From the NCBI RefSeq assembly GCF_003010495.1, contig NZ_CP027570.1, positions 1,800,001 through 1,832,000 of the forward strand: DNA of 32,000 bases, read 5' to 3'. This DNA comes from Megasphaera elsdenii DSM 20460. GTDB taxonomy: Bacteria > Bacillota > Negativicutes > Veillonellales > Megasphaeraceae. The position numbers and the translations under genes were made by a program. Each line of letters starts with the position of its first letter. The first letter of the stretch is position 1. The notes beneath the pieces were generated by a model, which saw nothing but the letters and a program-made list of their open reading frames with translations, made no database searches and was not told the DNA's origin. Positions 13,961-27,359 of this stretch are shown here, in pieces.

Positions 13961-14047
13961 GTGGGGATAGTGGCTAGTAGTTAGTGGCTCGTGGCTCGTG
14001 CTTCGTAGGGGCGTCCCAAAGGGCGGCCCGCTTAATTCCTTGCATAC
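13961..14047. repeat. Mosaic intergenic repeat cluster R3
   Basis: Seven heptamers GTGGGGA-TAGTGGC-TAGTAGT-TAGTGGC-TCGTGGC-TCGTGCT-TCGTAGG (13961-14009) run into a GTAG-headed palindrome, GTAGGGGCGTCCC-aaa-GGGCGGCCC (14005-14030). Confidence 0.88.
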
Positions 14048-14082
14048 AAAAAGGGGCTGTCGCACATGCGACAGCCCCTTTT
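14048..14082 (+). terminator. Rho-independent terminator (conserved hairpin family)
   Basis: AAAAA-GGGGCTGTCGCA-ca-TGCGACAGCCCC-TTTT (stem at 14053-14078). Confidence 0.9.
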
Positions 14083-14147
14083 AATTCTCGTCCCGTCTGT
14101 TATAATAGGGGGTGCAATTAGATTCTGTCATAAAGGAAGTGTATGTC

Positions 14148-14837
14148 ATGAAATTAACGGACCGCCTGGCTGCGGCTGTGTCTCTCATTCCGCAGGGAGC
14201 CGTCATTGCCGATATCGGGACCGACCACGCGTATATCCCCGTCTCCGTTTGTCAAAGCGGACACTGCCCATCGGCCATTGCTGCCGATATCGTTCCCGGC
14301 CCGCTGGCCGCGGCTGTAGCTCATGTCCGCGGTGCCGGTTTGACCGACCGTATCGACTGCCGCCTTGGCGATGGCCTGACCTGCATCCAGGCAGGGGAAG
14401 TCGATGGCGCCGTCATCTGTGGCATGGGCGGCCCGCTGATGGTCAAAATCCTGCAAAACTCGTATGAGGTCTGGCAATCTCTGCACTTTGCCGTCCTCCA
14501 GCCCCAAAGCGAGGCCGGCATTTTGCGCCGCTATCTTTACCAGCACGGCTGGCACATCGAAGACGAACGGCTGGTTATCGACGACGGCCGCTTCTATGAA
14601 ATGATGCGGGCTGTACCGGGTCAGGCCGACGCCTTGCCAGACTGGCTCTATGATATCGGCCCCGTGAACTGGCAGCGCCGCGACCCCTTGCTGGGCCGTA
14701 AGATTGATATTCTCATGGAGACAAAAGGGCATATCCTGGAAGGCCTGAGAAAGAGCCGCAAAGATGTGCACGAACGAATTGAAAAAATAGAAAGCGAATT
14801 ACGCTTCTGGAGGGAATTGAAATGTCAACTACCGTAG
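14148..14837 (+). CDS. trmK: tRNA (adenine22-N1)-methyltransferase TrmK (YqfN-like)
   Basis: N-terminal LTDRLAAAVSLIPQGAVIADIGTDHAYIP, and the conserved pairing with the downstream NIF3/yqfO gene. I prefer ATG 14148 (AAAGGAAG upstream). Confidence 0.85.
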   Translation: MKLTDRLAAAVSLIPQGAVIADIGTDHAYIPVSVCQSGHCPSAIAADIVPGPLAAAVAHVRGAGLTDRIDCRLGDGLTCIQAGEVDGAVICGMGGPLMVKILQNSYEVWQSLHFAVLQPQSEAGILRRYLYQHGWHIEDERLVIDDGRFYEMMRAVPGQADALPDWLYDIGPVNWQRRDPLLGRKIDILMETKGHILEGLRKSRKDVHERIEKIESELRFWRELKCQLP

Positions 14838-15940
14838 GTGAAATCGTTAACGTCTTGAAAGGATGGGCGCCCTTATCGCTCAAAGAATCGTGGGATAACC
14901 CGGGCCTGCTCATCGGCAGTCCCGATGAAAAGGTCGATAAGCTCATGGTCACGCTGGACGTCATGATGGGAGCCGTCGACTATGCCATCGAACACGGCAT
15001 CCAGATGATCGTCAGCCATCATCCCGTCATCTTTGACGGCTTGAAGTCCCTGCGTACCGATACGTACAGCGGCCGCCTGTATCAGAAGCTCCTGGCCCAT
15101 CATATTTCCGTCTATAGCGCCCATACCAACCTGGACAGTGCCGACGGCGGCGTCAACGACGTCCTGGCCCGTCTCCTGGGCTTGACTGATTTGCAAGGCC
15201 TCGTTCCCGTTGCCGAAGATAAGCTCTATAAGATTGCCGTCTACGTTCCCGAAAGCCACGGCGATGCTGTCCGCCAGGCCTTGGCTGACGCCGGTGCTGG
15301 TTATATCGGCAACTACAGTGACTGCTCTTTCACGGCCAAAGGCGAAGGTCGTTTCAAAGCCCATGAAGGGACGCATCCCTTTATCGGTGAAATCGGCAAA
15401 GTCGAAAGGGCGGCAGAAGAACGGATTGAAACCATCGTTCCCGAAAGCAAACTCCATCAGACCGTACAGGCCATGGTGGCCGCTCATCCCTATGAAGAAC
15501 CGGCATACGACATCTATCCATTGAAAAATGCCGGCCATCCCTTCATGATGGGCCGCGTCGGGACCTGGCCGACGCCGGAACCGGCAAGGGACGTCTTGAA
15601 GAAAATCAAGACCCTCCTCCATCGCGATGCCTTATCCTATGCCGGCGACCCTGACGTCACCGTTCACCGCGTCGCTCTCCTCGGAGGCGGTGGAGCCGGC
15701 TTCATTAAACTGGCCAAAGAGGCCGGCGCCCAGCTCTACCTTACAGGCGACGTCAAATACCATGACGCCCAGGAAGCCATCCGCCAAGGCATCGTCGTCG
15801 CCGACGGCGGCCACTTCGGCACCGAATTTCCCGTCGTAGCCGACCTCTGCCAGCGCCTGGAAGAAGCCGCAGCTAAAAACCAGTGGAACATCACCTGCGA
15901 AACCGACCCGACCAGTAAAGACATGCTGCAGTATATGTAA
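14822..15940 (+). CDS. Nif3-like dinuclear metal centre protein (YqfO / GTP cyclohydrolase 1 type 2 homologue)
   Basis: NIF3 signatures (WDNPGLLIG, VSHHPVIF, YSAHTNLD, GGHFGTE) with an inserted PII-like domain, 372 aa. It overlaps trmK by 16 nt. Confidence 0.9.
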   Translation: MSTTVGEIVNVLKGWAPLSLKESWDNPGLLIGSPDEKVDKLMVTLDVMMGAVDYAIEHGIQMIVSHHPVIFDGLKSLRTDTYSGRLYQKLLAHHISVYSAHTNLDSADGGVNDVLARLLGLTDLQGLVPVAEDKLYKIAVYVPESHGDAVRQALADAGAGYIGNYSDCSFTAKGEGRFKAHEGTHPFIGEIGKVERAAEERIETIVPESKLHQTVQAMVAAHPYEEPAYDIYPLKNAGHPFMMGRVGTWPTPEPARDVLKKIKTLLHRDALSYAGDPDVTVHRVALLGGGGAGFIKLAKEAGAQLYLTGDVKYHDAQEAIRQGIVVADGGHFGTEFPVVADLCQRLEEAAAKNQWNITCETDPTSKDMLQYM

Positions 15941-15943
15941 GGT

Positions 15944-16129
15944 GCCTTGCGGCGCGCCGTCCGCAATGGCTCCCCTGATAGGGGAGCTGTCAGCAAAGCT
16001 GACTGAGAGGTTGATTTCCTGGCAGATAGTGCCGCTGTGAAGTTTAAACACAGCCCATTCTTATCCAATGGCGGGATTTTACGAGCCACGAACCACGAGC
16101 CACAGCCTTTTTCACGGCCATCAGGCCCC
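15944..16129. repeat. Mosaic intergenic repeat cluster R4
   Basis: CCGTCCGCAATGG, then the double-hairpin module (CTCCCC-tgata-GGGGAG 15970-15986, GTCAGC-aaa-GCTGAC 15989-16003, TGAGAGGTTGATTTCCTG). Next CTGTGAAGTTTAAACACAGCCCATTC, a heptamer array ACGAGCC-ACGAACC-ACGAGCC (16081-16106), and the boundary hairpin GGCCATCAGGCCCC (16116-16129). Confidence 0.9.
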
Positions 16130-16157
16130 ACATCTCCCATAGAAAGGAAAATCTATC

Positions 16158-16805
16158 ATGACTAAAGAAGAACATGTAAAACATTTATTAGAAGATCCGG
16201 TATATGCCATCATGGGCAATGAAGAGCTTTGCCTGGGCCGGAGCAATATGGACGTCGCCAAAGAACTGATTGCTGCCGGCGTCACCATTATCCAGTACCG
16301 GGAAAAACATAAGAAATGGCGCGCCAAGTACGAAGAAACCAAGGCCATTGCCCAGCTCTGCCACGACCACAACGTGACTTTCATCATGAACGATTCGACG
16401 GACCTGGCCATTGCCTGCGGTGCCGATGGCATCCATGTCGGACAGGACGATGCCCCGGCTCAGATTGTCCGCCAACTCGCCGGCCCGGACGTCTTCATCG
16501 GCGTATCGACCAATACCATCGACGAAATGAAACAGGCCCTGGCTGACGGCGCCGATTACGTCGGTTTCGGCCCTATGTTCCCGACGCAGTCCAAAAAAGA
16601 CGCCGACGAAGTCGTCACGCCGGAAGCCAAAGCCTATGCACTGCACTATGAACTGCCCGTCGTCACCATCGGCGGCGTCAGCCTGGAAAACATCCGCAGC
16701 CTCTACGACGAAGGCTTCCGCTCCTTCGCCATGATTTCCGCTATCGTAGGCCAGAAGGATATCAAAGGCGCCGTAGAAAAAATCCGCCAGACATTGGGGT
16801 GTTAG
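16158..16805 (+). CDS. thiE: Thiamine-phosphate synthase
   Basis: ThiE pattern: IIQYREK, FIMNDSTDLAIACGADGIHVGQDD, GADYVGFGPMFPTQSKKD, PVVTIGGV. Confidence 0.88.
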   Translation: MTKEEHVKHLLEDPVYAIMGNEELCLGRSNMDVAKELIAAGVTIIQYREKHKKWRAKYEETKAIAQLCHDHNVTFIMNDSTDLAIACGADGIHVGQDDAPAQIVRQLAGPDVFIGVSTNTIDEMKQALADGADYVGFGPMFPTQSKKDADEVVTPEAKAYALHYELPVVTIGGVSLENIRSLYDEGFRSFAMISAIVGQKDIKGAVEKIRQTLGC

Positions 16806-17290
16806 CTATAAAGCGAATATAGCGAATATAGCGCAGATGGCAGGCCGCCGTCCGCAATGGCCCTGATAGGGGAGCTGTCAGCAAAGCTGACTGAGAGGTT
16901 GATTTCCTGTCAAATAGTATCGCCGTCCGCTCGGACTCAGATGCGGCGTTCCGCCGCGACAGACTCATGATTGTATTACGACCGTGTGTTACCTGTCATA
17001 AATTCCGGCTGTGCTCAAGATTCACGCGGCCTTTTTGGCCCGTCAGGTGCCGACCAGCGGAAGGCGCAGGACGGCTGCCAAAACGGACAGCTGTGGCTGG
17101 GCAGCCCGTTATGAGATTTGGCCATACCTATTCTTGTATGATGGTAGGTTTTTACGAGCCACGAACCACGAGCCACTATTTTTTACGAGCCGAGGGGTTC
17201 CCGCGGCGATGTCGTCAATTTGAGCTTGTCGCCGCGTAGCGGCAGCTGAGTTCGAGGCGAGCGGTCTGCGGCCGTCAGGCCCTTGACTCT
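16806..17290. repeat. Mosaic intergenic repeat cluster R5, containing a ~330-bp unit bounded by inverted repeats
   Basis: 9-mer tandem AGCGAATAT x2.5, then the double-hairpin module (16861-16915). The left arm TCGGACTCAGATGCGGCGTTCCGCCGCGACAGACTCA (16931-16968) is followed by the ~140-bp module also found at 20339-20470 and a heptamer array (17154-17176). The inverted right arm lies at 17187-17257 and the boundary hairpin GGCCGTCAGGCCC at 17270-17282. Confidence 0.9.
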
Positions 17291-17318
17291 CATCCATAAA
17301 TATGCTATCCTATACGAA

Positions 17319-17670
17319 TGATGAGTATGAAAAGCAATCGCTAGTGCTTTTGCATTAGAGGAAAGTCCGAGCTCCGTAGGGCAAGATGCCGGCTAACGGC
17401 CGGCGAAGGTGACTTTAGGGATAGTGCCACAGAAATGTGTACCGCCACGCAAGTGGTAAGGGTGGAACGGTGCGGTAAGAGCGCACCAGCGGTGCAGTAA
17501 TGCATCGGCTAGGTAAACCCCATCTGGAGCAAGACCGAATAGGGGAGGGATGAAGCGGCCCGCTGATCTTCCGGGTTGTGTCGCTTGAACATGCCGGCAA
17601 CGGTATGTCTAGATAGATGATTGCTGCTGCGCAAGCAGAACAAAACTCGGCTTACTGATTACTCATCACC
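17319..17670 (+). ncRNA. rnpB: RNase P RNA, bacterial type A
   Basis: Universal motifs GAGGAAAGTCCGAGC (P4 5' strand), GGTAAGGGTGGAACGGTGCGGTAAGAGCGCACC and AGAACAAAACTCGGCTTA (P4 3' strand). P1 pairs GATGAGTA (17320-17327) with TACTCATC (17660-17667). The ends are accurate to a few nt only. Confidence 0.93.
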
Positions 17671-17817
17671 TTGTGAATGTAAAGGGGTTGTCGTGCGAAG
17701 GTTCCTGCCATCATGCGAGACCCCTTTCTCTTTATAGTTTATAGTACGGAGTTTGTAGTAGAAGATGACTTTAAATTTAAAAAACTTCACTACAAACTAC
17801 AAACTTAGCACTCAAAA
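17671..17817. repeat. Mosaic intergenic repeat cluster R6
   Basis: Imperfect terminator-family hairpin GGGGTTGTCGTGCGA...GCGAGACCCC (about 17684-17724). Then a large inverted repeat, GAGTTTGTAGTAGAAG (17749-17764) against CTTCACTACAAACT (17786-17799), with ACTACAA heptamers and CTTAGCACTCAAAAGG. Confidence 0.8.
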
Positions 17818-17845
17818 GGCGCTGTCTTTATGCGACAGCGCCTTT
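17818..17845 (+). terminator. Terminator-like hairpin (conserved family)
   Basis: GGCGCTGTC-tttatgc-GACAGCGCC-TTT. The T-tract is short, so efficiency is uncertain. Confidence 0.6.
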
Positions 17846-17960
17846 ACATTTCCCCTTGTCCATGATATTATTTCAATAAGTGGTTTCAGATGGTAATAAA
17901 CCATAAGAATGAATTACCATGATAATGAATACTTAAACAAACAAAAGCGAGGGATTTAAG

Positions 17961-19184
17961 TTGGCATTAATCGTTAAGAAGTTCGGTGGCAGCTCCGTTG
18001 CGACGCCGGACAAAATGCGGGCTATTGTACAACGAGTCTTGAAAGGCAAACAGCCGGAAGACAAAATCGTCATCGTTGTTTCAGCAATGGGGGATACAAC
18101 AGACGAATTAGTAGCATTAGCCAAGCAGATCACTTCGAAGACTTACGGCCGTGAAATGGACATGCTCCTGACGACGGGCGAACAGGTCTCCATCGCCCTC
18201 ATGGCTATGGCTTTCCAGGAAGCTGGCCAGAAGGCTATTTCCTTTACGGGAGCACAGGCCGGTATCAAGACCAGCGACGCCTTTAACAAAGGCCGCATCC
18301 TGGCATTGAAACCGGGCCGCATCATGAAGGCTTTGGACCAGGGCAATATCGTCATCGTCGCAGGCTTCCAGGGTATCACCGGTCATGGTGATATTACGAC
18401 GCTCGGCCGCGGTGGCTCCGATACGACGGCAGTTGCCATTGCCGGTGCCATCCATGCTGATGTTTGTGAAATCTATACCGACGTTGACGGCGTATATACG
18501 TCCGATCCCCGTGTCGTTCCCAATGCGAAGAAAATCGACCAGATTACGTACGGCGAAATGCTGGAAATGGCGAAACTCGGCGCCGGTGTCATGCAGCCCC
18601 GTGCCGTAGAAATGGGCAGCCGCTTTGGCGTCCCCATTCACGTACGCTCGACTTTTTCTGAAGATGAAGGAACTATGATACAGGAGGATTGCTCTATGGA
18701 AGTCAAACAGTATCTCATCCGCGGCGTCGCTTCGGATAAAAATGTTGCAAAAATCACCGTTTTAGGGATTCCCAATAAACCGGGCTTTGCTTATCGCGTT
18801 TTCGCTGAATTGGCAGAAAAACACGTCGATGTCGACATGATCGTCCAAAGTGTCCGCATTGCCAACGAAGGCGTTACGGATATCACCTTTACCATCGCCC
18901 GCACGGACCTCGAACAGGCTAAGGCTGTCCTGGCTAACCTGCGTAAGGAAATGCCTGTCGAAGACGTCCTCATCGATGACAAAATGGCAAAAGTTTCCGT
19001 CGTCGGTGCTGGCATGGCCGGCCATCCGGGCATCGCTGCCGGCATGTTCGGCGTCCTCGGTGACAACGGCATCAATATCGAAATCATTTCCACTTCGGAA
19101 ATCAGCATTACCTGCCTCATTTCTGAAGACGTCATCGATAAAGCCGTCAAAGCTATCCACGCGCACTTCTTCGACGAAGACTAA
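17961..19184 (+). CDS. lysC: Aspartate kinase (monofunctional, two ACT domains)
   Basis: N-terminus ALIVKKFGGSSVATPDKM, GRGGSDTTAVAIA, and C-terminal ACT repeats. TTG start at 17961. Confidence 0.93.
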   Translation: MALIVKKFGGSSVATPDKMRAIVQRVLKGKQPEDKIVIVVSAMGDTTDELVALAKQITSKTYGREMDMLLTTGEQVSIALMAMAFQEAGQKAISFTGAQAGIKTSDAFNKGRILALKPGRIMKALDQGNIVIVAGFQGITGHGDITTLGRGGSDTTAVAIAGAIHADVCEIYTDVDGVYTSDPRVVPNAKKIDQITYGEMLEMAKLGAGVMQPRAVEMGSRFGVPIHVRSTFSEDEGTMIQEDCSMEVKQYLIRGVASDKNVAKITVLGIPNKPGFAYRVFAELAEKHVDVDMIVQSVRIANEGVTDITFTIARTDLEQAKAVLANLRKEMPVEDVLIDDKMAKVSVVGAGMAGHPGIAAGMFGVLGDNGINIEIISTSEISITCLISEDVIDKAVKAIHAHFFDED

Positions 19185-19193
19185 GGGGGATAC

Positions 19194-19493
19194 ATGTCTG
19201 TATTGGATAGCTTTACAGAAGAGATGCTGCAGTCTGAACTGCCCAAACGGGTCATCCTCGAACGCCTGACCCACGGCCTGGAAGTCGAAAAGCCGCCGCA
19301 GTTTGCCATCCCGGCTCCGAAGTACACCTTTGAAACGAACCTGCACGGCTTCCGTTACGATTACCAGAACCAGACCGTCACCATTTCCTATAAAGTAGCC
19401 CGCGGCCTTCATGACGATATGACCGTGTCCTTTATGACCTTCCGGGTCATCCTGGAAGGACTGGGCGTTTGTATCCGAATGCAGAAGTGGTAG
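19194..19493 (+). CDS. Hypothetical 99-aa protein, apparently co-transcribed with lysC
   Basis: ATG lies 9 nt after the lysC stop, preceded by AAGGGGGA. Codon usage looks like the neighbouring genes and a strong terminator follows. I recognise no motif. Confidence 0.5.
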   Translation: MSVLDSFTEEMLQSELPKRVILERLTHGLEVEKPPQFAIPAPKYTFETNLHGFRYDYQNQTVTISYKVARGLHDDMTVSFMTFRVILEGLGVCIRMQKW

Positions 19494-19502
19494 TGAAATA
19501 CA

Positions 19503-19538
19503 GAGGGGGTTGCCGCCAATGCGGCAGCCTCCTTTTTG
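19503..19538 (+). terminator. Rho-independent terminator (conserved hairpin family)
   Basis: GGGGGTTGCCGC-caat-GCGGCAGCCTCC-TTTTT (19505-19537). Confidence 0.85.
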
Positions 19539-19891
19539 CGGTAAAAGAGGGAAATCGTAGGCCGCAGATGGCCGTCCGCAATGGCTCCCCTGATAGGGGA
19601 GCTGTCAGCAAAGCTGACTGAGAGGTTGATTTCCTGTCAGATAATGCCGCTGTTCGTTCGGACTCAGATGCGGCGTTCTGCCGCGACAGACTCATGAAAT
19701 AAACGCAGGTCGCAGATGGCAGGTCGCCGCGGTCCTGTGGACCGCAAAAAAAATACACGGCCCTTGGCCTTGTGCGTAGGGGACGCCTAAAAGGCGTCCC
19801 GCTGTGAAATTTAACCACAGCCCATTCGGGTCTAATAGTGAGCTTTTACGAGCCACGAACGATGAACGAAAACGGGGGCCAATTAGGCCCC
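19539..19891. repeat. Mosaic intergenic repeat cluster R7
   Basis: CCGTCCGCAATGG, then the double-hairpin module (19585-19646) and the arm TCGGACTCAGATGCGGCGTTCTGCCGCGACAGACTCA (19658-19696). Next CGCAGATGGCAGG...GGACCGCAAAAAAAATACACGGCC, the REP-like GTAGGGGACGCC-taaa-AGGCGTCCC (19776-19800) and CTGTGAAATTTAACCACAGCCCATTC. It ends with heptamers (19848-19875) and the boundary hairpin GGCCAATTAGGCCCC (19877-19891). Confidence 0.9.
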
Positions 19892-19917
19892 ATCTCTCCC
19901 CGAAAGGAAGGAAACCG

Positions 19918-20286: not shown

Positions 20287-20791
20287 AAGGGGCCGTTGTT
20301 CCCTCGTACTCAGATGCGGCGTTCTGCCGCGACAGACTCATGATTGTATGACGACCGTGTGCTATTCGTCATAAATTCCGGCTGTTCACAGGATTCGCTG
20401 CGGCCTTTTTGGCCCGTCAGGTGCCGACCAGCGGAAGGCGCAAGACGGCTGCCAAAACGGACAGCCGTGGCGGGACGCCTTTCAGGCGTCCCCTACGGTA
20501 TCGCATACAGGCGATGGAAAAGGACACGGCCACAGGTCACAAAAAATGCACGGCCTACAGCCGGGTGCGTAGGGGACGCCCAAAGGGCGTCCCGCTGTGA
20601 GGTACAACCATAGCCCATTCAGCCCTGATAGTATGTTTTTACGAATCACGAGTTACGAACCACGGTCTTTTCCACGAGCCGAGGGTATCCCGAGGCGATA
20701 TCGTCACTTTGAGTTTGACGCCGCGCAGCGGCATCTGATTCCAAGGCGGACTGCGACTGGCGGTATGCAATCTGCGGGGCCATCAGACCCC
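20287..20791. repeat. Mosaic intergenic repeat cluster R8, containing a ~446-bp unit bounded by inverted repeats
   Basis: Left arm at 20301-20343, the 140-bp module at 20339-20470, and an inverted REP-like GGGACGCC-tttc-AGGCGTCCCCTAC (20472-20496). Hairpin ATCGC-ataca-GGCGAT, forward REP-like GTAGGGGACGCCC-aaa-GGGCGTCCC (20569-20593) and heptamers (20641-20665). The inverted right arm lies at 20676-20746 and the boundary hairpin GGCCATCAGACCCC at 20778-20791. Confidence 0.9.
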
Positions 20792-20814
20792 TTTACAAAA
20801 AGGAGAAATATATT

Positions 20815-22467: not shown

Positions 22468-22468
22468 C

Positions 22469-23401
22469 GTGAAAAAAAGAAGCTTCTTTACAGCCGCTCT
22501 GGCCCTGGTCATGAGCCTCATGCTCATCCTGGCCGGCTGTGGCAACAGCGCTTCGTCCAGCTCGTCTGGCGGAGCCAAAGCCGTTCAGTCTTTGACGGCT
22601 TCTGACAAAGATTTGCGCGTGTCCGTCCTTAACGTCGGCCAGGCCGATGCGACGCTTATCCAGTATAAAGGCAAGAACATGCTCATCGACACGGGTGACG
22701 TCGACAGCCGGGCTGATTTGGTAAAACAGCTCAAAGAACGCAAGGTCAAAGACCTGGACATCGTCGTCATCACCCATCCCCACGGTGACCACATGGGCGG
22801 CATGGCAGAATTGTTCAAAGATTTCAAAATCAAACAGATTTACGACAATGGCCAGAGCGCCAATACGGCCATGTACCGCAATTATCTGAAGAACATCAAA
22901 GCCAAGAACATCGCCTATAAAGTCTTGAAGAAAGGCGATACCTTCACCCTTGGTGATGACGTCAAATTCACAGTCCTGTCGCCGGCCAAACCCTTTACCA
23001 AAGAAAATACCCAAGGTGTTTCCGAAAGCGGCCTGACTAACAATAATTCCATCGTCTGCAAGATGACCTATGGTCAGTTCTCCATGATGTTTACTGGCGA
23101 TGCCCAGAAAGAAGCGGAAGACCAGATCCTCAAGGCTTACAAACCGGCCGACCTCAAATCGGACGTCCTCAAAGTCGGCCATCACGGCAGCAAGACCTCG
23201 TCGTCCGACGCCTTCGTCAAAGCCATCGCGCCGAAAGCGGCAACCATCTCCTGTGCTGCCGGTAATCAGTACAAATTCCCGCATGAACCGACCTTGAAGA
23301 CCTTGCAGAAATACAACGTCGAAGTCTATCGCACCGACCGCAACGGTACCATCACCATCACCACCGACGGCTCGTCGTACAGCATCGCAAAGGAGCACTG
23401 A
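22469..23401 (+). CDS. MBL-fold metallo-hydrolase lipoprotein (ComEC C-terminal-domain-like)
   Basis: Lipobox LILAGCGN, the HxHxDH motif ITHPHGDHMGG, and later KVGHHGS. GTG 22469 follows GGAGGA and lies 1 nt after the nnr stop. Confidence 0.8.
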   Translation: MKKRSFFTAALALVMSLMLILAGCGNSASSSSSGGAKAVQSLTASDKDLRVSVLNVGQADATLIQYKGKNMLIDTGDVDSRADLVKQLKERKVKDLDIVVITHPHGDHMGGMAELFKDFKIKQIYDNGQSANTAMYRNYLKNIKAKNIAYKVLKKGDTFTLGDDVKFTVLSPAKPFTKENTQGVSESGLTNNNSIVCKMTYGQFSMMFTGDAQKEAEDQILKAYKPADLKSDVLKVGHHGSKTSSSDAFVKAIAPKAATISCAAGNQYKFPHEPTLKTLQKYNVEVYRTDRNGTITITTDGSSYSIAKEH

Positions 23402-23402
23402 T

Positions 23403-23621
23403 ATGAAAAAGGAACTCATCGGAAGTATCGACCGCATTACCGAACAGACAGCCTGCATCATCCTCAACGACGATGAACACCAGCTCCAGATTCCACTCGA
23501 ACTCCTGCCAGACGGCGCCGATGAAGGCATGGCCTTCACCATCACCATCGAACGCAACGAAGAAGAAGAAAAACGCCTGGCCGAAGAAATCGCAACCCTA
23601 AAAGAAAGCCTCTCCCAATAG
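23403..23621 (+). CDS. DUF3006-like small protein
   Basis: 72 aa (IDRITEQTACIILNDDEHQLQIPLELLPDGADEGMAFTITIE). From memory, this family usually accompanies the ComEC-like MBL lipoprotein. The start is coupled (TGATATG). Confidence 0.65.
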   Translation: MKKELIGSIDRITEQTACIILNDDEHQLQIPLELLPDGADEGMAFTITIERNEEEEKRLAEEIATLKESLSQ

Positions 23622-23634
23622 GAGAGGTTTTTTC
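23609..23634 (+). terminator. Rho-independent terminator
   Basis: CCTCTCC-caata-GGAGAGG-TTTTTT. The stem overlaps the TAG stop at 23619-23621. Confidence 0.8.
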
Positions 23635-24458
23635 TTTTGCTTTTTACGGATTACGAGCCACTGCCTTTCCTCGGACTCAGATGCGGCTGCGCCGCGACAG
23701 ACTCAAACTAACAACGACGCTTCGGGAAGCCCTCAGCACGTAGCGGGCCGCCCGCCGCTACCATCTGTCCAGGTAACCGTTCTGTACTTGACGTGTTAGA
23801 ATATTTTGGGCGGCCCCTACGAATGCGGCTGCGCCGCAACAAACTCATGAAATGAACGCAGTTCGCCGGTCGCAGATGGCAGGCCGCTATGGCCCTGTGG
23901 ACCGCAAAAAAATCACGGCCCATGGCCTTGTGCGTAGGGGCCGTCCCGGTCAGGGCGGCCCGCTGCGATATTCAACCACAGCCTGTCCGAGTATAATGGC
24001 AGGCCTTTACGAGCCACGAACAACGAGCCACTGCTTTTCCCTCGGACTCAGATGCGGCTGCGCCGCGACAGACTCAAACTAACAACGACGCTTCGGGAAG
24101 CCCTCAGCGCGTAGCGGGCCGCCCGCCGCTACCATCTGTCCAGGTAACCGTTCTGTACTTGACGTGTTAGAATATTTTGGGCGGCCCCTACGAATGCGGC
24201 TACACTGCAATAAACTCATGAAATGAACGCAGTTCGCAGGCGGTCGGTCGCAGTCTGCGCGGTCCTATGGATCGCAAAAAAAATCACGGCCAGCGGCCTT
24301 GTGCGTAGGGGACGCCCAGAGGGCGTCCCGCTTGTGAGATTCGACCATAGCCTATCTGAGTATAAGCAGGCTTTTCAAGCTACTAGCCACAAATCACGAG
24401 CCCACGGCTTTTCCTCGGACTCAGATGCGGCTGCGCCGCGACAGACTCAAACTAACAA
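23635..24458. repeat. Mosaic repeat cluster R9: ~372-bp macro-tandem repeat (2 full copies and the start of a third)
   Basis: The anchor TCGGACTCAGATGCGGCTGCGCCGCGACAGACTCAAACTAACAACGACGCTTCGGG starts at 23671, 24042 and 24415 (periods 371 and 373). The first ~160 bp of copies 1 and 2 differ at one position, and the second halves are more diverged. Each unit carries GTAGCGG...CCGCTAC, an inverted CCCCTAC, a forward GTAGGGG palindrome and a heptamer array. Confidence 0.92.
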
Positions 24459-24507
24459 TGGTCCTATGTCAAGATTTCGGACAAATTAAATTGAGGTTTT
24501 TCGTTTC

Positions 24508-25422
24508 TTAGATTCCCAGACGCATATTATGTTTCTGGAAATCAGCATACAGCTTTTCATAGTCATCCGGTGACATGTAGTTGCAATGGCTATGAATGCG
24601 TACGGTGTTGTAAAAGGTATTGATGTATTCAAACACCAACAAGTACGCTTGCTGATAATTTTGAATCTTGAAGCGATTGAGCCATTCCCGTTTAATCAGG
24701 GAGTGGAAGGATTCGATGCAGGCATTGTCCCATGGATAGCCTTTCTTCGAATAGCTGCGGCGCATTTGGGATGTCTCCCGAATATATGCCTGCGAAACAT
24801 ACTGGCAGCCACGGTCCGAATGGATAACCAACAGCTGTCCGGGTTTCCGGCATTGTTTGGCTTCCTGCAGCATCTTGACGATGCCGGCGACGTCCAGATT
24901 ACGGGCCAGATTCCAGGCGATGATTTTCCTGGAGAACAAATCCATAATGCTTTCCAAATAGACGAAACCTTCAGCTGTCCAGATATAGGTGATGTCGCTG
25001 CACCATACTTGATCCGGTTCTTCAGGATTGAAGCATTCCTGAAGGATATTCACCAGCGCCACGTCAAAGTCACTGTTACGGGTCGTTACGGTGTAATGCT
25101 TTACCCAGCAGGCCTGAATGCCCATTTGCCGCATGTATACGCCAACTGTGCGTTCAGAGATACTGTCCCCGTTCTGCTGCATAACTTGGGCAATCTTCGG
25201 GGCTCCGTAAATCTGCTTGGAATCGTCGTAGATAGTTTGAATCTTTTTCTTCATCTCCTTGCGGTGCTGGGCCTGTTTCGATGGTTTGCGCGCCGCCCAG
25301 TCATAATATCCTGAAGAAGAAACGTCGAGTTCAGAAAGCACTCCGGACACCGAAAAACGACGTTCTGCCTGATGGGCATTTTCGGCTTCTTCCTGGACAC
25401 TGCGATAGATGGCAATGGTCAT
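24508..25422 (-). CDS. IS3-family transposase OrfB (DDE integrase core), probably made as an OrfAB fusion by -1 frameshift
   Basis: DDE triad context: WCSDITYI, IHSDRGCQYVS, PWDNACIESFH. The orfB frame is open from the slippery run to its ATG. Confidence 0.9.
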   Translation of the reverse strand: MTIAIYRSVQEEAENAHQAERRFSVSGVLSELDVSSSGYYDWAARKPSKQAQHRKEMKKKIQTIYDDSKQIYGAPKIAQVMQQNGDSISERTVGVYMRQMGIQACWVKHYTVTTRNSDFDVALVNILQECFNPEEPDQVWCSDITYIWTAEGFVYLESIMDLFSRKIIAWNLARNLDVAGIVKMLQEAKQCRKPGQLLVIHSDRGCQYVSQAYIRETSQMRRSYSKKGYPWDNACIESFHSLIKREWLNRFKIQNYQQAYLLVFEYINTFYNTVRIHSHCNYMSPDDYEKLYADFQKHNMRLGI

Positions 25423-25700
25423 TTGTCCAGAATGCTGATAGCTTTTTTTAGGACATTCAACGCATCCTTCGCATCCCGCAGTTCACGCTGCAGACGGGCG
25501 ATTTCCTTAGCTTCATCCGAAGCATAGTTGCCGGAACCACGATAAGGCATTTCGCCATTGTCCTTCAGCTGCTTTTGCCAACGGGACAAGGTTTGTGGAG
25601 CAATACCTAGATTCGTAGCACAGCCAACCAAGCCGAGTTCCCGATGTTCATGATAATATTTAACTGCGTTGATTTTGAATTCTTTGTTGAATTTTGCCAT
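25419..25700 (-). CDS. IS3-family transposase OrfA (HTH)
   Basis: 93 aa with an HTH_Tnp_1-like region (NAVKYYHEH...GIAPQTLSRWQKQ) and a leucine-zipper-like C-terminus. Confidence 0.9.
   Translation of the reverse strand: MAKFNKEFKINAVKYYHEHRELGLVGCATNLGIAPQTLSRWQKQLKDNGEMPYRGSGNYASDEAKEIARLQRELRDAKDALNVLKKAISILDK
25442..25449 (-). promoter_or_regulatory. Programmed -1 ribosomal frameshift site (A AAA AAA G)
   Basis: On the minus strand, CTAAAAAAAGC reads in orfA phase as cuA-AAA-AAA-Gcu. orfB is in the -1 frame (checked by coordinate phase) and has no stop between this site and its ATG. Confidence 0.75.
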
Positions 25701-25780
25701 ACTGAGGCCTCCTTAGTTAATCCTATTGTACCACCATTAGGAACCTCAGTTTGACTTGTCCTATTTATATGCTAACACCA

Positions 25781-26170
25781 CAACGACGCTTCGGGAAACC
25801 CTCAGCGCGTAGCGGGCCGCCTTCACAGGACGGTCCCTGCGATGCAGCCGAGCTGCGTCAAACTCATGATTATATTATGACCGTGTGCCATTTGCCATAA
25901 ATTCCGGCTGTTCACATAAGTCACGGCGGGCCGCCTTGGACAGGTCGCCCCCTACATATCGCATACAGGCGATGATTGGGAAGGCCGTTTACCGAATATA
26001 ACCCAAATACACGGCTAACGGCCTTGTGCGTAGGGGCTGTACCAAGCCTTTTTGGCCCGTCAGGTGCCGACTAATAGGAGTCGCAGGACGGCTGCCAAAA
26101 CGGACAGCTGTGGCTGGGCAGACCGCTCTGTGATATTCAACCACAGCCTATTCGAGCATAATGGTGAGCT
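25781..26170. repeat. Mosaic repeat cluster R10 (continuation of the unit interrupted by the IS)
   Basis: It resumes exactly at ...CAACGACGCTTCGGGAAACCCTCAGCGCGTAGCGGGCCGCC. It then contains the 140-bp module in two pieces (about 25866-25925 and 26045-26125), an inverted CCCCCTAC (25952-25955), the ATCGC-ataca-GGCGAT hairpin, GTAGGGG (26030) and CTGTGATATTCAACCACAGCC. Confidence 0.88.
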
Positions 26171-26244
26171 TTTCTCGATGAGCGATTTCCCGGTTGTACA
26201 AAGAAATTGAAATCTGATACAATAAACTCAAGGAGGTGTGGCCG

Positions 26245-27029
26245 ATGGATGAAGAGATGATGCAGGATGTAAAGGAGCAGCTGGTGGGCGCGTTGGACTA
26301 TGATCAAGCAGCGAAAGGCGTTTTGTCACAGAAAATGGTGCTGGCTTATATCTTGAAACGGACGGTTCCCGAATTTGAATCGGCCAGCCTCGACGATATT
26401 GCCAATATCTACATCGAAGGGACGCCGGAAGTCAGTACGGTTCCGGTTTCTAATTGATTTCTTCACAAAAAGGAACCGAATTTACCAATAGCGACTACAA
26501 TAAAATAAAGAAGGTCTATACCATCTGGATTTGCATGGAAGCCCCGCAGGGAAAAAGCGCTATCAACCGCTATCAGCTGAAAGAACAGCATTTGCTGCAC
26601 CGCTATAAGGAACCTTGTCAGAATTATGACCTCATGGGCATCATCTTTGTCTATCTGGGAAACAGCAAAGTCAAAGACCGGCTGATAAACCTGCTTGATT
26701 TGATGTTCAAATCATCAAAGAACGCCAGTGAAAAGATTACGACCCTGCATAATGATTTTGGGATTGATTTGACACAAGAAGGAGAGGGGGATTTGGAAGT
26801 CATGTGCAACTTAGGAGAAGGAATCTACGAAGATGGCCTGATGAAAGGCAAACAAGAAGGATGGGAGAAAGGTAGAAAAGAAGGCAGAAAAGAAGGCAGA
26901 AGGGAAGGAAAATTGGAATTAGCTCTTGAAATGTTGAAGGATGGGATGGCCTTAGAAAAAGTAGCAAAGTATAGCAAATTATCACTTTCCATCATCAAGG
27001 AACTTGCTAAACAAAATAAATTGATTTAG
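26245..27029 (+). pseudogene. Rpn/PD-(D/E)XK nuclease-family putative transposase, disrupted (internal deletion plus stop)
   Basis: Two abutting ORFs (26236-26457 and 26454-27029). The N-terminal part ...VLAYILKRTVPEFESASLDDIANIYIEGTPEVSTVPV and the C-terminal part ISSQKGTEF..YNKIKKVYTIWIC...KGKQEGWEKGRKEGRKEGRREGKLELALEMLKDGM match the two ends of this family. The central nuclease core (roughly 80-100 aa, judged from my memory of family members) is missing and a TGA sits at the junction. Confidence 0.5.
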
Positions 27030-27041
27030 GAATAATTACAA

Positions 27042-27080
27042 AACACCGCTACGGGGCAAGAAACCATTGGCGGTGTTTTT
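27042..27080 (+). terminator. Terminator-like hairpin
   Basis: AACACCGC (27042-27049) pairs with GCGGTGTT (27070-27077), followed by TTT. The loop is long (~20 nt), so confidence is moderate only. Confidence 0.45.
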
Positions 27081-27359
27081 GTTGAAATTCCCTCGGATTC
27101 AGATGCGGCGTTCCGCCGCGACAAACTCAAATTGACAATGACGCTTCGGGAAACCCTCAGCGCATAGCGGGCCGCCCTTTGGCCGGCCCCTACGACGGCC
27201 CCGGATGGGGCCCTTTCCACAAGCCGAGGGTTTCCTGAGGTGATGTCGTCTACTTGAGTTTAACGTCGCATTGTGGCATTGGGGATGTACACAGGATTCA
27301 CGCGGGACGCCCTTTGGGCGTCCCCTACGAATGGCGGCCTTGCGGGGCGGTCAGGTCCC
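27081..27359. repeat. Mosaic repeat cluster R11, containing a compact ~195-bp palindromic unit
   Basis: The left arm at 27090-27162 (CCCTCGGATTCAGATGCGGCGTTCCGCCGCGACAAACTCAAATTGACAATGACGCTTCGGGAAACCCTCAGCG) is the inverted complement of the right arm at 27221-27284. The centre carries CCCCTAC (27190-27193) and GGCCCC-ggat-GGGGCC. Next come the inverted REP-like GGGACGCCC-ttt-GGGCGTCCCCTAC (27304-27328) and the boundary hairpin (27346-27359). Confidence 0.9.

What the first reader, a model, noticed from the sequence alone, without database searches (positions are those of the whole stretch)
14005..27328. REP-like family: GTAG-headed GC-rich palindromes in almost every intergenic gap
Seen: there are at least 15 intergenic copies of a GTAG tetranucleotide (CTAC when inverted) fused to a 7-11-bp GC-rich palindrome. 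The typical form is GTAGGGGACGCC-N3-5-GGCGTCCC. Forward heads lie at 14005, 19776, 20569, 23934, 24305 and 26030. Inverted copies (CCCCTAC) end at 20496, 23820, 24191, 25955, 27193 and 27328. A second subtype, GTAGCGG-gccgcccg-CCGCTAC, starts at 23740, 24111 and (truncated) 25809. None lies inside a credible CDS. Established: enterobacterial and pseudomonad REP elements are defined by a conserved GTAG head next to an imperfect GC-rich palindrome. They cluster into mosaic BIMEs/REPINs and are the substrates of RAYT transposases. Inference: this genome carries its own REP family. I do not know of such a family having been characterised in Negativicutes.
Basis: partly seen in the sequence, partly recalled or inferred. 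Interest (0 to 1): 0.7.

Follow-up and report, generated by a model that had tools for sequence, protein, structure and literature searches.

The report
Megasphaera REP repeats and their transposase
The GTAG-headed GC-rich hairpins are a real, genome-wide family of REP-type repeats in Megasphaera elsdenii, and their inverted pairs look like gene-less copies of a small unit that carries a RAYT-type transposase in other strains; this is a well-known kind of element that I found no description of in this bacterial group.

Summary
Every coordinate is correct, and the motif occurs 10 times plus one unrelated 1-mismatch hit, against 0.9 expected. All copies are intergenic. The window is Megasphaera elsdenii DSM 20460 (100% identity over 21 kb).

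In 174.5 kb sampled from eight regions of that genome, 52 of 56 GTAG-hairpins are non-coding. Extrapolation gives roughly 400 copies per genome. The stem covaries strongly: 93.9% of cells are paired and 0 of 500 shuffles match it. In a head-blind search, 47 of 52 hairpins carry GTAG on exactly one side.

Two corrections are needed. There are 13 units, not 15. The "second subtype" is the tail arm of long-loop REPs.

The cognate enzyme exists. A 149-aa Y1/HUH transposase scores best against NCBIfam's REP-associated tyrosine transposase model. It is common in M. elsdenii and lies between an inverted REP 126 nt upstream and a forward REP 51 nt downstream. The window's inverted doublets align to those two flanks with the gene missing, so they are REPIN-like.

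The window's own strain lacks the gene at its usual site. The REPs sit in larger BIME-like mosaics that differ greatly between strains.

This is a new member of a known kind, of moderate interest.

The parts
14005..14031 (+). REP unit GTAGGGGCGTCCCAAAGGGCGGCCCGC. Imperfect, with a 1-nt deletion in the 5' arm. Preceded in phase by GTGGCTC heptamers.
   Evidence: family D20; fold -8.7 kcal/mol, z -2.0
19776..19802 (+). REP unit GTAGGGGACGCCTAAAAGGCGTCCCGC. 9-bp perfect stem.
   Evidence: z -4.5
20470..20496 (-). REP unit, left member of an inverted doublet with the GTAG ends facing inward.
   Evidence: I15
20569..20595 (+). REP unit with the commonest sequence, GTAGGGGACGCCCAAAGGGCGTCCCGC. Right member of the doublet.
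   Evidence: commonest variant, 93 occurrences
20462..20677 (.). REPIN-like doublet. Its left part aligns to the DNA just upstream of the M. elsdenii RAYT gene. Its right part aligns to the DNA starting right after the RAYT stop codon. As ssDNA the two REPs pair into one long hairpin.
   Evidence: alignments; dG -40.8 kcal/mol, z -6.2
23740..23820 (-). Long-loop REP. The arms GCGGGCCGCCC and GGGCGGCCCCTAC are separated by a ~55-nt loop.
   Evidence: arms pair in MFE and centroid
23934..23963 (+). REP unit of the bulged-T type, GTAGGGGCCGTCCCGGTCAGGGCGGCCCGC. Same type as the REP downstream of RAYT.
24111..24191 (-). Long-loop REP, second copy within the 371-bp tandem duplication.
   Evidence: (D2)
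24305..24331 (+). REP unit GTAGGGGACGCCCAGAGGGCGTCCCGC.
25809..25840 (-). Inverted REP with a mutated head (CCCTGC).
   Evidence: compare GTAGGGGCCGTCCTGTGAAGGCGGCCCGC
25921..25955 (-). Inverted REP, imperfect (GTAGGGGGCGACCTGTCCAAGGCGGCCCGCC).
   Evidence: I11
26030..26127 (+). Degenerate long-loop REP. Head GTAGGGGCTGTACC, then a ~75-nt loop module C, then tail GGGCAGACCGC.
   Evidence: D8; weak fold, z -1.1
27167..27193 (-). REP unit GTAGGGGCCGGCCAAAGGGCGGCCCGC. This is the short-loop counterpart of the 23740 and 24111 units.
   Evidence: I9, I10
27302..27328 (-). REP unit with the commonest sequence.
   Evidence: I8, 100% complementary to 20568-20595
20292..20748 (.). Full composite mosaic: A(+)-B-C-REP(-)-G-F-REP(+)-E-A(-). 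The ~40-75-nt module A forms terminal inverted repeats.
   Evidence: (I2)
23607..24458 (.). Mosaic with a 371-bp unit repeated about 2.3 times. It continues at 25782-26178 after the IS.
   Evidence: (D2, D13)
27088..27329 (.). Mosaic: A/Ax(+)-REP(-)-Ax(-)-REP(-).
   Evidence: I6
19564..19914 (.). Mosaic: D-A-F-REP(+)-E.
16840..17259 (.). Mosaic without an intact REP: D-A-B-C-E-A(-). Other strains have REP(-)-G-F where this strain has C.
   Evidence: gap g3
15955..16150 (.). Mosaic D-E only. Other strains carry 224-504 nt more here, including REPs.
   Evidence: gap g2
5844..6326 (-). 160-aa Megasphaera-specific homolog of RAYT. It keeps PNHIHL (HUH) but has Ser where the catalytic Tyr aligns. 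It is not shown to act on the REPs.
   Evidence: hhalign 96%, E 3.6e-9
24459..25781 (-). IS3-family insertion sequence inserted in mosaic module Ax, with a 3-bp target duplication CAA. It is not part of the REP family but it interrupts it.

Best explanation
The hairpins are REP elements of the GTAG-tagged superfamily, belonging to Megasphaera elsdenii.

A unit has three parts: an unpaired GTAG; an 8-10-bp GC-rich stem starting GGG, with a 3-8-nt loop or in one sub-family a 55-75-nt loop; and a GC tail. Units commonly occur as inverted pairs with the GTAG ends facing inward, 70-113 nt apart.

Such a pair has the same sequence as the two flanks of a roughly 0.7-kb unit found in other strains, [REP(-) - 126 nt - RAYT gene - 51 nt - REP(+)], but without the gene. 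The pairs are therefore non-autonomous, REPIN-like derivatives of a REPtron.

Inferred by analogy with E. coli TnpA(REP): the 149-aa Y1/HUH enzyme binds the folded hairpin together with the GTAG tag on single-stranded DNA, then cuts and rejoins it, spreading REP doublets through intergenic DNA.

The REPs lie inside larger BIME-like mosaics made of modules A, Ax, B, C, D, E, F and G plus heptamer arrays. These mosaics differ between strains by duplication, deletion and exchange of modules. That pattern looks more like recombination between dispersed copies than clean transposition.

In the window's own strain (DSM 20460) the RAYT gene is missing from its usual site. The copies here may therefore be immobile at present.
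For: Shown:
- The motif is enriched and intergenic. It is dispersed over eight regions of HE576794.1, to which the window is 100% identical. Density away from IS copies is about 0.17 per kb, which extrapolates to about 400 per genome.
- In a head-blind search, 47 of 52 GGG..CCC hairpins have GTAG on exactly one side, 24 on the + strand and 23 on the - strand.
- Stem covariation was measured on 59 distinct copies chosen only by their outer anchors. 93.9% of cells are paired. There are 80 double-sided changes against 26.3 in shuffles (0 of 500 reach this). The score collapses when the partner is slid.
- RAYT: Pfam Y1_Tnp E 2.6e-8. NCBIfam REP_Tyr_transpos scores 72.4 bits against 26 bits for the IS200 model.
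- H76, H78 and Tyr135 are invariant in a 22-sequence alignment that includes E. coli TnpA(REP), and they align with its H59, H61 and Y115.
- Sources name the protein 'transposase [Megasphaera elsdenii]' and 'REP element-mobilizing transposase RayT'. It is seen on 450 contigs.
- The flanking REP geometry is identical in 14 of 15 loci.
- The gene sits at the same place, after the amino-acid permease gene, in all 10 places shown; in 9 of them QueC follows.
- The window doublet aligns to both REPtron flanks with the gene absent. It folds as one long hairpin, z -6.2.
- An Oscillospiraceae RAYT homolog (44% identity) is preceded by four inverted REPs with the same GTAGGGGACG...CGTCCC core.
- Orthologous gaps vary from 58 to 918 nt between strains.
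Against: - The RAYT scores below NCBIfam's equivalog cut-off (72.4 against 80 bits).
- It is absent from the permease-QueC site in CP198969.1, which is the same strain as the window (99.97% identity with no mismatches). tblastn found no copy in about 200 kb of that genome held here. The rest of the genome could not be searched.
- The strain differences I could dissect look like recombination, duplication or deletion between modules. I found no clean empty-versus-filled site, target site or insertion signature.
- Transposition, binding and cleavage are all inferred from E. coli work; nothing was tested for this protein.
- Bertels et al. 2017 report that RAYT groups outside Groups 2 and 3 have only weak association with abundant flanking repeats. 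A strong REP population here was therefore not a given.
Confidence: 0.8

Rival explanations
1. The hairpins are primarily host RNA or DNA structural elements, such as 3'-end mRNA protectors, attenuators or protein-binding sites. On this view selection keeps them, homologous recombination spreads them, and the nearby RAYT plays no part in their dispersal.
For: Compensatory stem changes show selection for pairing. Some copies lie between a stop codon and an intrinsic terminator, so they would be transcribed (14005). Strain differences look recombinational. The window's strain keeps many identical copies without the RAYT at its usual site.
Against: - Copies occur equally in both orientations (24 and 23) between co-directional genes. 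A strand-specific RNA role would not predict this.
- The invariant unpaired GTAG tag is the known recognition element of RAYTs.
- The RAYT gene is flanked at fixed distances by the same REPs in 14 of 15 loci.
- The doublets are gene-less copies of that unit.
- A host role and RAYT-driven spread are not mutually exclusive.
Confidence: 0.1
2. They are miniature derivatives (PATE/MITE type) of an ordinary, still-selfish IS200/IS605 insertion sequence. On this view a classical TnpA(IS200) moves them, not a domesticated RAYT.
For: The genome carries IS200/IS605 traces: TnpB-like fragments in L132 and L139, and a 151-aa Y1_Tnp IS inserted in module A in L278. RAYTs and IS200 TnpA are homologous.
Against: - The REP-flanked protein matches the REP-associated model far better than the IS200 model (72.4 against 26 bits).
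- It sits at one conserved chromosomal site in all 10 places shown, rather than in many copies.
- The IS200 element in L278 has different ends (gtcgcccccacccgtaaaacgggtgg...), unrelated to the REP.
Confidence: 0.05
3. They are intrinsic transcription terminators that look alike because terminators are GC-rich hairpins.
For: The stems are GC-rich and lie between genes.
Against: No REP hairpin is followed by a T-run, and none was called by the terminator scan. The same gaps hold separate, genuine terminators such as 23603-23633. Both orientations occur. The conserved GTAG head and GC tail are irrelevant to termination.
Confidence: 0.02
4. It is a local duplication or a chance motif confined to this locus.
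For: A 371-bp tandem duplication in the window does inflate the local count (D2).
Against: The same motif is found in seven other regions of the same genome, in other strains, in other Megasphaera species and in gut metagenomes. Shuffles give 0-5 hits against 56 observed.
Confidence: 0.01

Closest known systems
E. coli REP/BIME elements with TnpA(REP) (the REPtron; PDB 4ER8)
   Same: - A 5' GTAG tag next to an imperfect GC-rich hairpin.
- Extragenic location, with inverted units clustered in mosaics alongside other motifs.
- A roughly 150-165-aa Y1/HUH enzyme flanked by its own REPs, with the HUH histidines and catalytic Tyr aligned.
- Loss of the gene in some strains (for E. coli; here).
   Different: - Only 22% protein identity to the E. 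coli enzyme.
- No C-terminal extension; E. coli H123 aligns with Trp.
- Different stem sequence (GGGACGCCC rather than GCCGGATG...).
- The accompanying mosaic modules (A, B, C, D, E, F, G and heptamer arrays) have no counterpart that I could identify.
- The host is a Negativicute (Bacillota), not a proteobacterium.
Pseudomonas REPIN-RAYT systems (Bertels and Rainey 2011; Bertels et al. 2017)
   Same: - Two inverted REPs separated by a short spacer, able to fold into one long hairpin.
- The doublet corresponds to the flanks of a single-copy RAYT gene held at a conserved chromosomal site.
   Different: - The spacer is 70-113 nt and carries its own small hairpins (modules G and F).
- Doublets are embedded in larger composite units of 370-450 nt.
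- It was not shown that doublets outnumber singlets, or that they replicate as a unit.
GTAG-tagged REP superfamily (Di Nocera et al. 2013; 24 families in 8 phyla)
   Same: This family meets every descriptive criterion given there:
- an unpaired GTAG terminus;
- 6-13-bp stems;
- sub-families with complementary stem changes;
- short loops alongside complex long loops;
- dimers with the GTAG termini inside ('TT');
- a location between unidirectional genes.
   Different: That paper's text does not mention Firmicutes, Clostridia or Negativicutes. I could not compare with its Figure 1 consensus sequences because figures are not held.
IS200/IS605 insertion sequences and their miniature derivatives
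   Same: The transposase fold is homologous, and the enzyme recognises sub-terminal hairpins plus a short guide tetranucleotide on single-stranded DNA.
   Different: The gene is single-copy at a fixed site. The protein fits the RAYT model much better than the IS200 model. No TnpB accompanies it.

Membership tests
GTAG-tagged REP superfamily | Short (about 20-40 bp) GC-rich imperfect palindrome | tested here: met
   Units are 27-30 nt with an 8-10-bp stem and a 3-8-nt loop. ssDNA folds give z -4.2 to -4.5 for perfect copies.
GTAG-tagged REP superfamily | Conserved unpaired GTAG tetranucleotide at one end of the hairpin | tested here: met
   In a head-blind search, 47 of 52 GGG..CCC hairpins have GTAG on exactly one side, none on both sides and 5 on neither.
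GTAG-tagged REP superfamily | Extragenic location | tested here: met
   52 of 56 hits lie in 37.5 kb of non-coding DNA and 4 in 137 kb of coding DNA. Two of those four fall in a doubtful 71-aa ORF.
GTAG-tagged REP superfamily | High copy number, dispersed round the chromosome | tested here: met
   Eight regions of HE576794.1 were sampled. Extrapolation gives about 400 per genome. A true whole-genome count was not possible with these tools.
GTAG-tagged REP superfamily | Sub-families with compensatory stem changes | tested here: met
   Four stem pairs have double-sided changes. There are 80 such cells against 26.3 in shuffles (0 of 500 reach this).
GTAG-tagged REP superfamily | Association into inverted dimers or clusters | tested here: met
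   Dimers with GTAG ends inside occur at 20496/20569, 23820/23934, 24191/24305 and 25955/26030. Tandem 93-nt A-Ax-REP units are repeated 2-3 times in L274-L277.
REP-RAYT system (REPtron) | A RAYT-clade Y1/HUH transposase encoded in the organism | tested here: met
   Met for the species. P0001 and P0121 are named 'transposase [Megasphaera elsdenii]' or 'RayT'. NF047646 scores 72.4 bits, below the equivalog cut-off of 80 but far above the IS200 model at 26 bits. HUH and Tyr are conserved.
REP-RAYT system (REPtron) | RAYT gene flanked by the genome's own REPs in inverted orientation | tested here: met
   REP(-) ends 126 nt before the ATG and REP(+) starts 51 nt after the stop in 14 of 15 loci.
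REP-RAYT system (REPtron) | Single copy at a conserved chromosomal position (housekeeping-like rather than IS-like) | tested here: met
   The gene follows the amino-acid permease gene in all 10 places shown, with QueC downstream in 9 of them. One short contig (L258) shows the identical gene next to PDDEXK_2-HPF instead. Copy number per genome was not counted.
REP-RAYT system (REPtron) | RAYT present in the very genome of the window | tested here: not met
   The permease-QueC gap of CP198969.1 (same strain) has REP mosaic but no RAYT. No tblastn hit was found in about 200 kb held from that genome, apart from the divergent paralog at 5844-6326. The remaining roughly 2.2 Mb was not searchable.
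REP-RAYT system (REPtron) | RAYT binds and cleaves its REP in a GTAG-dependent way | not testable with these tools
   Known for E. coli TnpA(REP). Requires biochemistry.
REPIN | Two inverted REPs with a short spacer that can form one long hairpin | tested here: met
   The ssDNA fold of 20462-20600 pairs the two REPs over 26 bp, with dG -40.8 and z -6.2.
REPIN | The doublet, not the single REP, is the replicating unit (doublets over-represented; whole doublets present or absent between strains) | tested here: inconclusive
   Strain polymorphisms involve larger or different blocks. The singlet-to-doublet ratio was not measured genome-wide.
Intrinsic terminator | GC-rich hairpin directly followed by a T-run | tested here: not met
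   No REP appears among the terminator-like sites. The tails are GCTGTG or GCCGTG, not T-runs.
Rfam RNA families | Match to a curated covariance model | tested here: not met
   Only RNase P RNA (17322-17669) reached a gathering score in the window.

The most novel reading that the evidence does not exclude
The REP-RAYT pair may do more than spread a selfish hairpin. On this reading it is the engine of a modular, shuffling intergenic 'cassette' system in gut anaerobes.

The hairpins travel with promoter-like modules (B, E), structured spacers and GT[AG]G-containing heptamer arrays. Strains 98-99% identical in their genes carry quite different intergenic architectures, with gaps ranging from 58 to 918 nt. 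If so, REP-associated rearrangement would rewire operon boundaries and expression between strains.

The same GTAGGGG[AC]CG...CG[GT]CCCGC core, paired with a 44%-identical RAYT, also occurs in Oscillospiraceae. That would point to a shared, possibly horizontally exchanged system across Bacillota classes, contrary to the mostly vertical picture drawn from proteobacteria.
Probability: 0.15. Interest if true: 0.7.

Novelty: new member of a known kind. Interest (0 to 1): 0.5.

Why it matters
REP, REPIN and RAYT biology has been worked out almost entirely in enterobacteria, pseudomonads and a few other proteobacteria. The two surveys I read do not mention Firmicutes for REPs and report only weak repeat association for RAYT groups outside Groups 2 and 3.

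Here a Negativicute of the gut and rumen has an estimated several hundred REPs. They have clear stem covariation, a cognate RAYT with fixed REP flanks, and doublets that are visibly gene-less copies of the RAYT unit.

The RAYT gene is present in some M. elsdenii strains and cleanly absent in others, including the type strain. The species is therefore a natural experiment on what happens to a REP population after its transposase is lost.

There are practical consequences too. These mosaics break short-read assemblies: many contigs end about 140 nt from the RAYT gene. They also generate spurious small ORFs, and they explain much of the strain-to-strain variation in intergenic length.

Tried and rejected
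- **Rfam.** A gathering-threshold scan of the window found only RNase P RNA. There are no tRNAs.
- **E. coli RAYT as a probe.** The sequence was confirmed identical to PDB 4ER8 chain A. It gave no Pfam hit at E <= 0.001. It gave no phmmer hit among ORFs of the first 120, and later 140, loci. Success came only after a Megasphaera-specific REP pattern was scanned in metagenomes.
- **The generic REP pattern in genome contigs.** It shows that the core is widespread, but it cannot give per-genome counts, and the matches share the core by construction.
- **QueC look-up.** I worked around this through a protein search and a cluster listing.
- **Module D in other taxa.** A regex for module D (CTCCCCTGATAGGGGAGCTGTCAGC...) found none in the 120 genome-scan loci. 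My impression from one locus (L039) that module D is shared with Clostridia is therefore not supported.
- **Module E as a portable promoter.** I considered that module E is a sigma-70 promoter. The TTGACC-TATAAT spacing is only 13 nt and the scan did not call it. Module B does give three consistent promoter-like hits on the minus strand. This was left as an observation.
- **Clean insertion sites.** I looked for an empty site against a filled site to define a target or duplication. The shortest gap (L129, 58 nt) has different flanking sequence, so no insertion junction could be defined.
- **Strand asymmetry.** G-T mismatches against A-C mismatches in stems were 9 against 4 cells. That is too few to say whether an RNA form is selected.

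Full report
**1. What the window is**

Window positions 7961-29184 are 100% identical to Megasphaera elsdenii DSM 20460, HE576794.1 positions 2303145-2324368 in reverse (locus L122). The G+C content is 52.5%. Apart from RNase P RNA at 17322-17669, no Rfam family reaches its gathering score.

**2. The observation**

The pattern GTAGGGGMCGNC, allowing up to 1 mismatch, matches 11 times against 0.90 expected. No shuffle of 100 exceeded 4.

All copies lie between called genes. The consensus is CGTAGGGGACGCCCAAAGGGCGTCCCGC. Copies at 20568-20595 and 27302-27329 are perfectly complementary to each other.

**3. Corrections to the observation**

The 'second subtype', GTAGCGGgccgcccgCCGCTAC at 23740 and 24111, is not an independent palindrome. 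Read on the minus strand, 23820-23740 is GTAGGGGCCGCCC, then about 55 nt, then GGGCGGCCCGCTAC. That is a REP whose two arms are separated by a long loop. The arms pair in the predicted ssDNA fold.

The short-loop equivalent is at 27167-27193 (I9 and I10). The same long-loop form occurs at unrelated loci (L198, L246). The ~75-nt module C, which sits in the loop at 26030-26127 and in many other copies, appears from shared motifs, by eye, to be a longer variant of the same loop.

The copy at 25809-25840 is a complete inverted REP with a mutated head. The window therefore holds 13 units, not 15 or more.

**4. The hairpin is one module of a bigger mosaic**

Self-BLAST shows that repeated DNA fills whole intergenic gaps: 5654-5850, 15955-16150, 16840-17259, 19564-19914, 20292-20748, 23607-24460, 25780-26178 and 27088-27329.

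A complete composite at 20292-20748 reads A(+)-B-C-REP(-)-G-F-REP(+)-E-A(-). Module A forms inverted repeats at the two ends. A 371-bp unit is tandemly repeated about 2.3 times at 23666-24458. 'REP-like family in almost every gap' is therefore true of the mosaic but not of the hairpin alone.

**5. Is it a dispersed family?**

The IS3-family transposase in the window has identical copies elsewhere in the same genome. I used it to fetch seven further 21-kb regions of HE576794.1, at about 0.05, 0.68, 0.90, 0.92, 1.03, 1.35 and 1.77 Mb. Together with the window this gives 174.5 kb.

A strict search required GTAG, a stem of at least 7 bp with at most one mismatch, at least 70% GC and a loop of 3-8 nt. 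It finds 56 units. Of these, 52 lie in the 37.5 kb that is non-coding and 4 in the 137 kb that is coding. Shuffles give 0-5.

The sample is biased because the IS copies sit in REP-rich DNA: 1.9 units per kb within 1 kb of an IS, against 0.17 per kb elsewhere. The lower density extrapolates to about 400 copies per genome. This is an extrapolation, not a count.

A generic pattern scan of one genome per species returned M. elsdenii, M. intestinihominis and three further Megasphaera genomes. A Megasphaera-specific pattern returned 116 stretches, the named ones from human-gut metagenomes.

**6. Is the structure selected, and is GTAG really attached to it?**

I took every 27-mer in Megasphaera-derived loci that matched only the outer anchors GTAGGGG..(15 nt)..CCCG[CT]. 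That gave 59 distinct sequences. The five inner stem pairs were left unconstrained by this selection, and four of them vary.

Overall, 93.9% of cells pair. Four pairs show changes on both sides, for example A-T, C-G and T-A at columns 8/22. There are 80 double-sided cells against 26.3 in shuffles (0 of 500 reach this). The score collapses when the 3' partner is slid by 1-3 columns.

A head-blind search looked for GGG..CCC hairpins in the 174.5 kb. It found 52. Of these, 47 carry GTAG immediately 5' on exactly one strand (24 on the + strand, 23 on the - strand) and 5 carry none. The GTAG tag is therefore a genuine, asymmetric feature, and there is no orientation bias.

**7. The transposase**

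The E. coli TnpA(REP) sequence, verified as identical to PDB 4ER8 chain A, found nothing in the first loci. Among the metagenome loci it hit an ORF at L189 9603-10052 (E 1.3e-5).

- **Family assignment.** The 149-aa product matches Pfam Y1_Tnp (E 2.6e-8). It matches NCBIfam NF047646, 'REP-associated tyrosine transposase', at 72.4 bits. That is below the equivalog cut-off of 80, but the IS200 model scores only 26 bits.
- **Catalytic residues.** In a 22-sequence alignment that includes the E. coli enzyme, H76, H78 and Y135 are invariant. They align with the H59 and H61 (HUH) and catalytic Y115 described for TnpA(REP).
- **Naming and abundance.** Its 90%-identity cluster is named 'transposase [Megasphaera elsdenii]', and by JGI 'REP element-mobilizing transposase RayT'. 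One variant is recorded on 450 contigs.
- **Genomic position.** The gene follows the amino-acid permease gene in all 10 places shown, and in 9 of them QueC lies just downstream. One short contig has the identical gene next to PDDEXK_2 and HPF instead (L258).

**8. REPtron geometry and the origin of the doublets**

In 14 of 15 RAYT loci an inverted REP (GCGGGACGCCCTTTGGGCGTCCCCTAC) ends 126 nt before the ATG. A forward REP of the bulged-T type (GTAGGGGCCGTCCCGGGCAGGGCGGCCCGC) begins 51 nt after the stop. The GTAG ends face the gene.

The window doublet at 20462-20677 aligns on its left to the DNA upstream of RAYT, as far as ...CAGGCGATG. Two or three bases later it aligns to the DNA that starts immediately after the RAYT stop codon (AAGGAC...), and the alignment continues through REP(+), module E and the heptamer run. 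The doublets are therefore RAYT-less versions of the RAYT unit, which is the REPIN concept. As ssDNA, the doublet folds with the two REPs paired to each other over 26 bp (dG -40.8 kcal/mol, z -6.2).

**9. The window's own strain**

CP198969.1 is the same strain: 99.97% identity over 21.3 kb with no mismatches and one gap. Its permease-QueC gap contains the mosaic, including three tandem 93-nt A-Ax-REP units, but no RAYT (L277). Among the contigs read for that QueC protein variant, most of the places at this site lack the gene. One strain has an unrelated IS200 inserted in module A instead.

tblastn with the Megasphaera RAYT found nothing else in the roughly 200 kb I hold from this genome, except a weak hit inside the window at 5844-6326 on the minus strand. 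I could not search the rest of the genome.

**10. The RAYT-like gene in the window**

The ORF at 5844-6326(-) encodes 160 aa. It has 22 homologs, the closest from M. elsdenii-like contigs, none carrying a source name or a Pfam domain. Profile-profile comparison with the RAYT alignment gives 96% probability and E 3.6e-9.

It keeps the PNHIHL motif (HUH). However, a Ser aligns with the catalytic Tyr, and the WQR.FYEH motif is gone. It may be a degenerate or re-purposed RAYT relative. Nothing links it functionally to the REPs.

**11. Variation between strains**

Ten M. elsdenii strains or MAGs have an identical aspartokinase and flanking genes 92-99% identical to the window. Their orthologous gaps nevertheless differ widely:

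| Gap | Length in different strains (nt) |
|---|---|
| Nif3 to ThiE | 217, 441, 621 or 721 |
| AcpS to YjeF | 58 to 918 |

- Modules are duplicated (L128 has two composites in tandem) or deleted.
- Modules are swapped at the same position: C in some strains, REP(-)-G-F in others, in the ThiE to RNase P gap.
- In L126 a REP loop holds a ~165-nt insert with its own terminal inverted repeats.

I found no clean empty-versus-filled junction. These differences are best read as recombination, slippage and secondary insertions acting on a pre-existing repeat population, not as direct evidence of transposition.

**12. Relatives outside Megasphaera**

An Oscillospiraceae RAYT homolog (P0065, 44% identity) is directly preceded by four tandem inverted REPs, GTAGGGGACGGCGCCCTCGACGTCCC. 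This is one nucleotide longer in the loop than the GTAGGGGACGGCGCCTCGACGTCCCGC sequence that dominates the Clostridia hits of the genome scan. A second Megasphaera RAYT clade (P0007, 49% identity) and L200 (42%) have REPs with other stems nearby (GGGTCGCC, GGGCGCCC).

**13. Mechanism: what is shown and what is inferred**

Shown:
- the family, its tag, stem selection, dispersal and extragenic bias;
- the doublet organisation;
- the RAYT gene with catalytic residues and fixed REP flanks;
- the doublets' identity to those flanks;
- polymorphism of both the repeats and the RAYT gene.

Inferred from E. coli TnpA(REP) biochemistry and structure and the REPIN literature:
- the enzyme binds the folded REP plus GTAG on single-stranded DNA;
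- it cleaves and rejoins that DNA;
- this spread the doublets.

Not addressed: any host function, such as mRNA 3'-end protection or supercoiling.

**14. Comparison with the literature**

Di Nocera et al. 2013 describe GTAG REPs in more than 80 species of 8 phyla, with exactly these features. Their text does not mention Firmicutes, Clostridia or Negativicutes. Nunvar et al. 2010 likewise do not.

Bertels et al. 2017 note Group 1 RAYTs 'also found in the Clostridia', with only weak association with abundant flanking 16-mers. No paper in the library combines RAYT with Megasphaera or Negativicutes terms.

**15. Verdict**

This is a new member of a known kind. It is of moderate interest because of the host lineage, the very clear REPtron-to-doublet relationship, and the natural presence/absence polymorphism of the RAYT gene.

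Noticed in passing
window 5844-6326 (-): A 160-aa ORF whose family is known only from Megasphaera-like sequences. It is homologous to RAYT/Y1 transposases (hhalign 96%, E 3.6e-9). It keeps the HUH motif (PNHIHL) but has Ser where the catalytic Tyr aligns. It has 22 homologs, none with a Pfam domain. It may be a degenerate or re-purposed RAYT relative.
   Followed up: partly
window 24459-25781 (-); L134-L140 around 9655-10985: An IS3-family IS (OrfA 93 aa, OrfB 304 aa) is inserted in mosaic module Ax with a 3-bp duplication CAA. All 8 copies sampled in this genome lie in intergenic DNA in or next to the repeat mosaics. REP density within 1 kb of them is about 10 times that elsewhere (1.9 against 0.17 per kb). 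This recalls IS1397, ISKpn1 and ISPpu9, which target REPs. It could also be mere tolerance of intergenic insertions.
   Followed up: partly
window 5596-5639, 5764-5802, 7920-7943, 13984-14000, 16081-16107, 17154-17176, 17789-17805: Intergenic arrays of degenerate heptamers: GTGGCTC and its complement ACGAGCC, CTAACAA, and ACTACAA (the complement of TTGTAGT). All contain GT[AG]G-like cores. They often lie between a stop codon and a terminator, or next to REPs. At 13975-14011 the heptamers run in phase into the GTAGGGG head of a REP. No explanation.
   Followed up: no
window 5657-5694, 15970-16007, 16858-16895, 19585-19622: A second palindromic repeat (module D): CTCCCCTGATAGGGGAG followed by CTGTCAGCaaaGCTGACTGAG. 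It always lies in the same orientation as the flanking genes. A regex for it found none in the 120 non-specific genome-scan loci.
   Followed up: partly
window 16970-16999, 20343-20372, 25869-25898 (-): Module B gives the same sigma-70-like match (ATGACA/ATGGCA/ATGACG, 18 nt, TACAAT/TATAAT) on the minus strand in all three copies. That is antisense to the flanking genes. Module E contains TATAAT-like boxes (TGGTATAAT in some strains) but lacks a well-spaced -35.
   Followed up: no
window 26245-27029 (+): A PD-(D/E)XK (PDDEXK_2, Rpn-like) gene is split here into 70-aa and 191-aa ORFs. It is intact (345 aa) in L126 and L128, so it is probably a pseudogene in this strain.
   Followed up: no
L126 12325-12853 (AcpS-YjeF gap of another strain): A ~165-nt AT-rich insert with its own terminal inverted repeats (GCTGGGGAGGCYRCTGAAAAA...) sits in the loop of a REP. 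REP loops seem to be recurrent insertion points, given also the 55-75-nt loop modules.
   Followed up: no
L278 about 3000-3780 (CP199043.1, permease-QueC gap): An IS200-type element (151-aa Y1_Tnp, opposite strand) is inserted within mosaic module A (…GACAGACTCAAA | … | ACTGACAACGACG…). It lies in the same gap where other strains carry the RAYT.
   Followed up: no
L001-L120: The core GTAGGGG[AC]CG…CG[GT]CCCGC occurs as multi-copy repeats in very distant taxa. Examples are Oscillospirales (GTAGGGGACGGCGCCTCGACGTCCCGC), Verrucomicrobiota and Victivallales (GTAGGGGCCGACCACCGGGCGGCCCGC), an Acidobacteriota chromosome and Thermomicrobiales. The pattern itself selects for this core, so the sharing may be partly by construction.
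   Followed up: partly
L258-L263: Many metagenome contigs that carry the RAYT gene begin 140-146 nt upstream of it and end soon after it. The flanking REP mosaics evidently break short-read assemblies.
   Followed up: no
window 29144-30009 and 31144-32000: Two adjacent paralogous SLH-domain genes are 72-91% identical over several stretches at a 2000-nt spacing. This is unrelated to the REPs.
   Followed up: no
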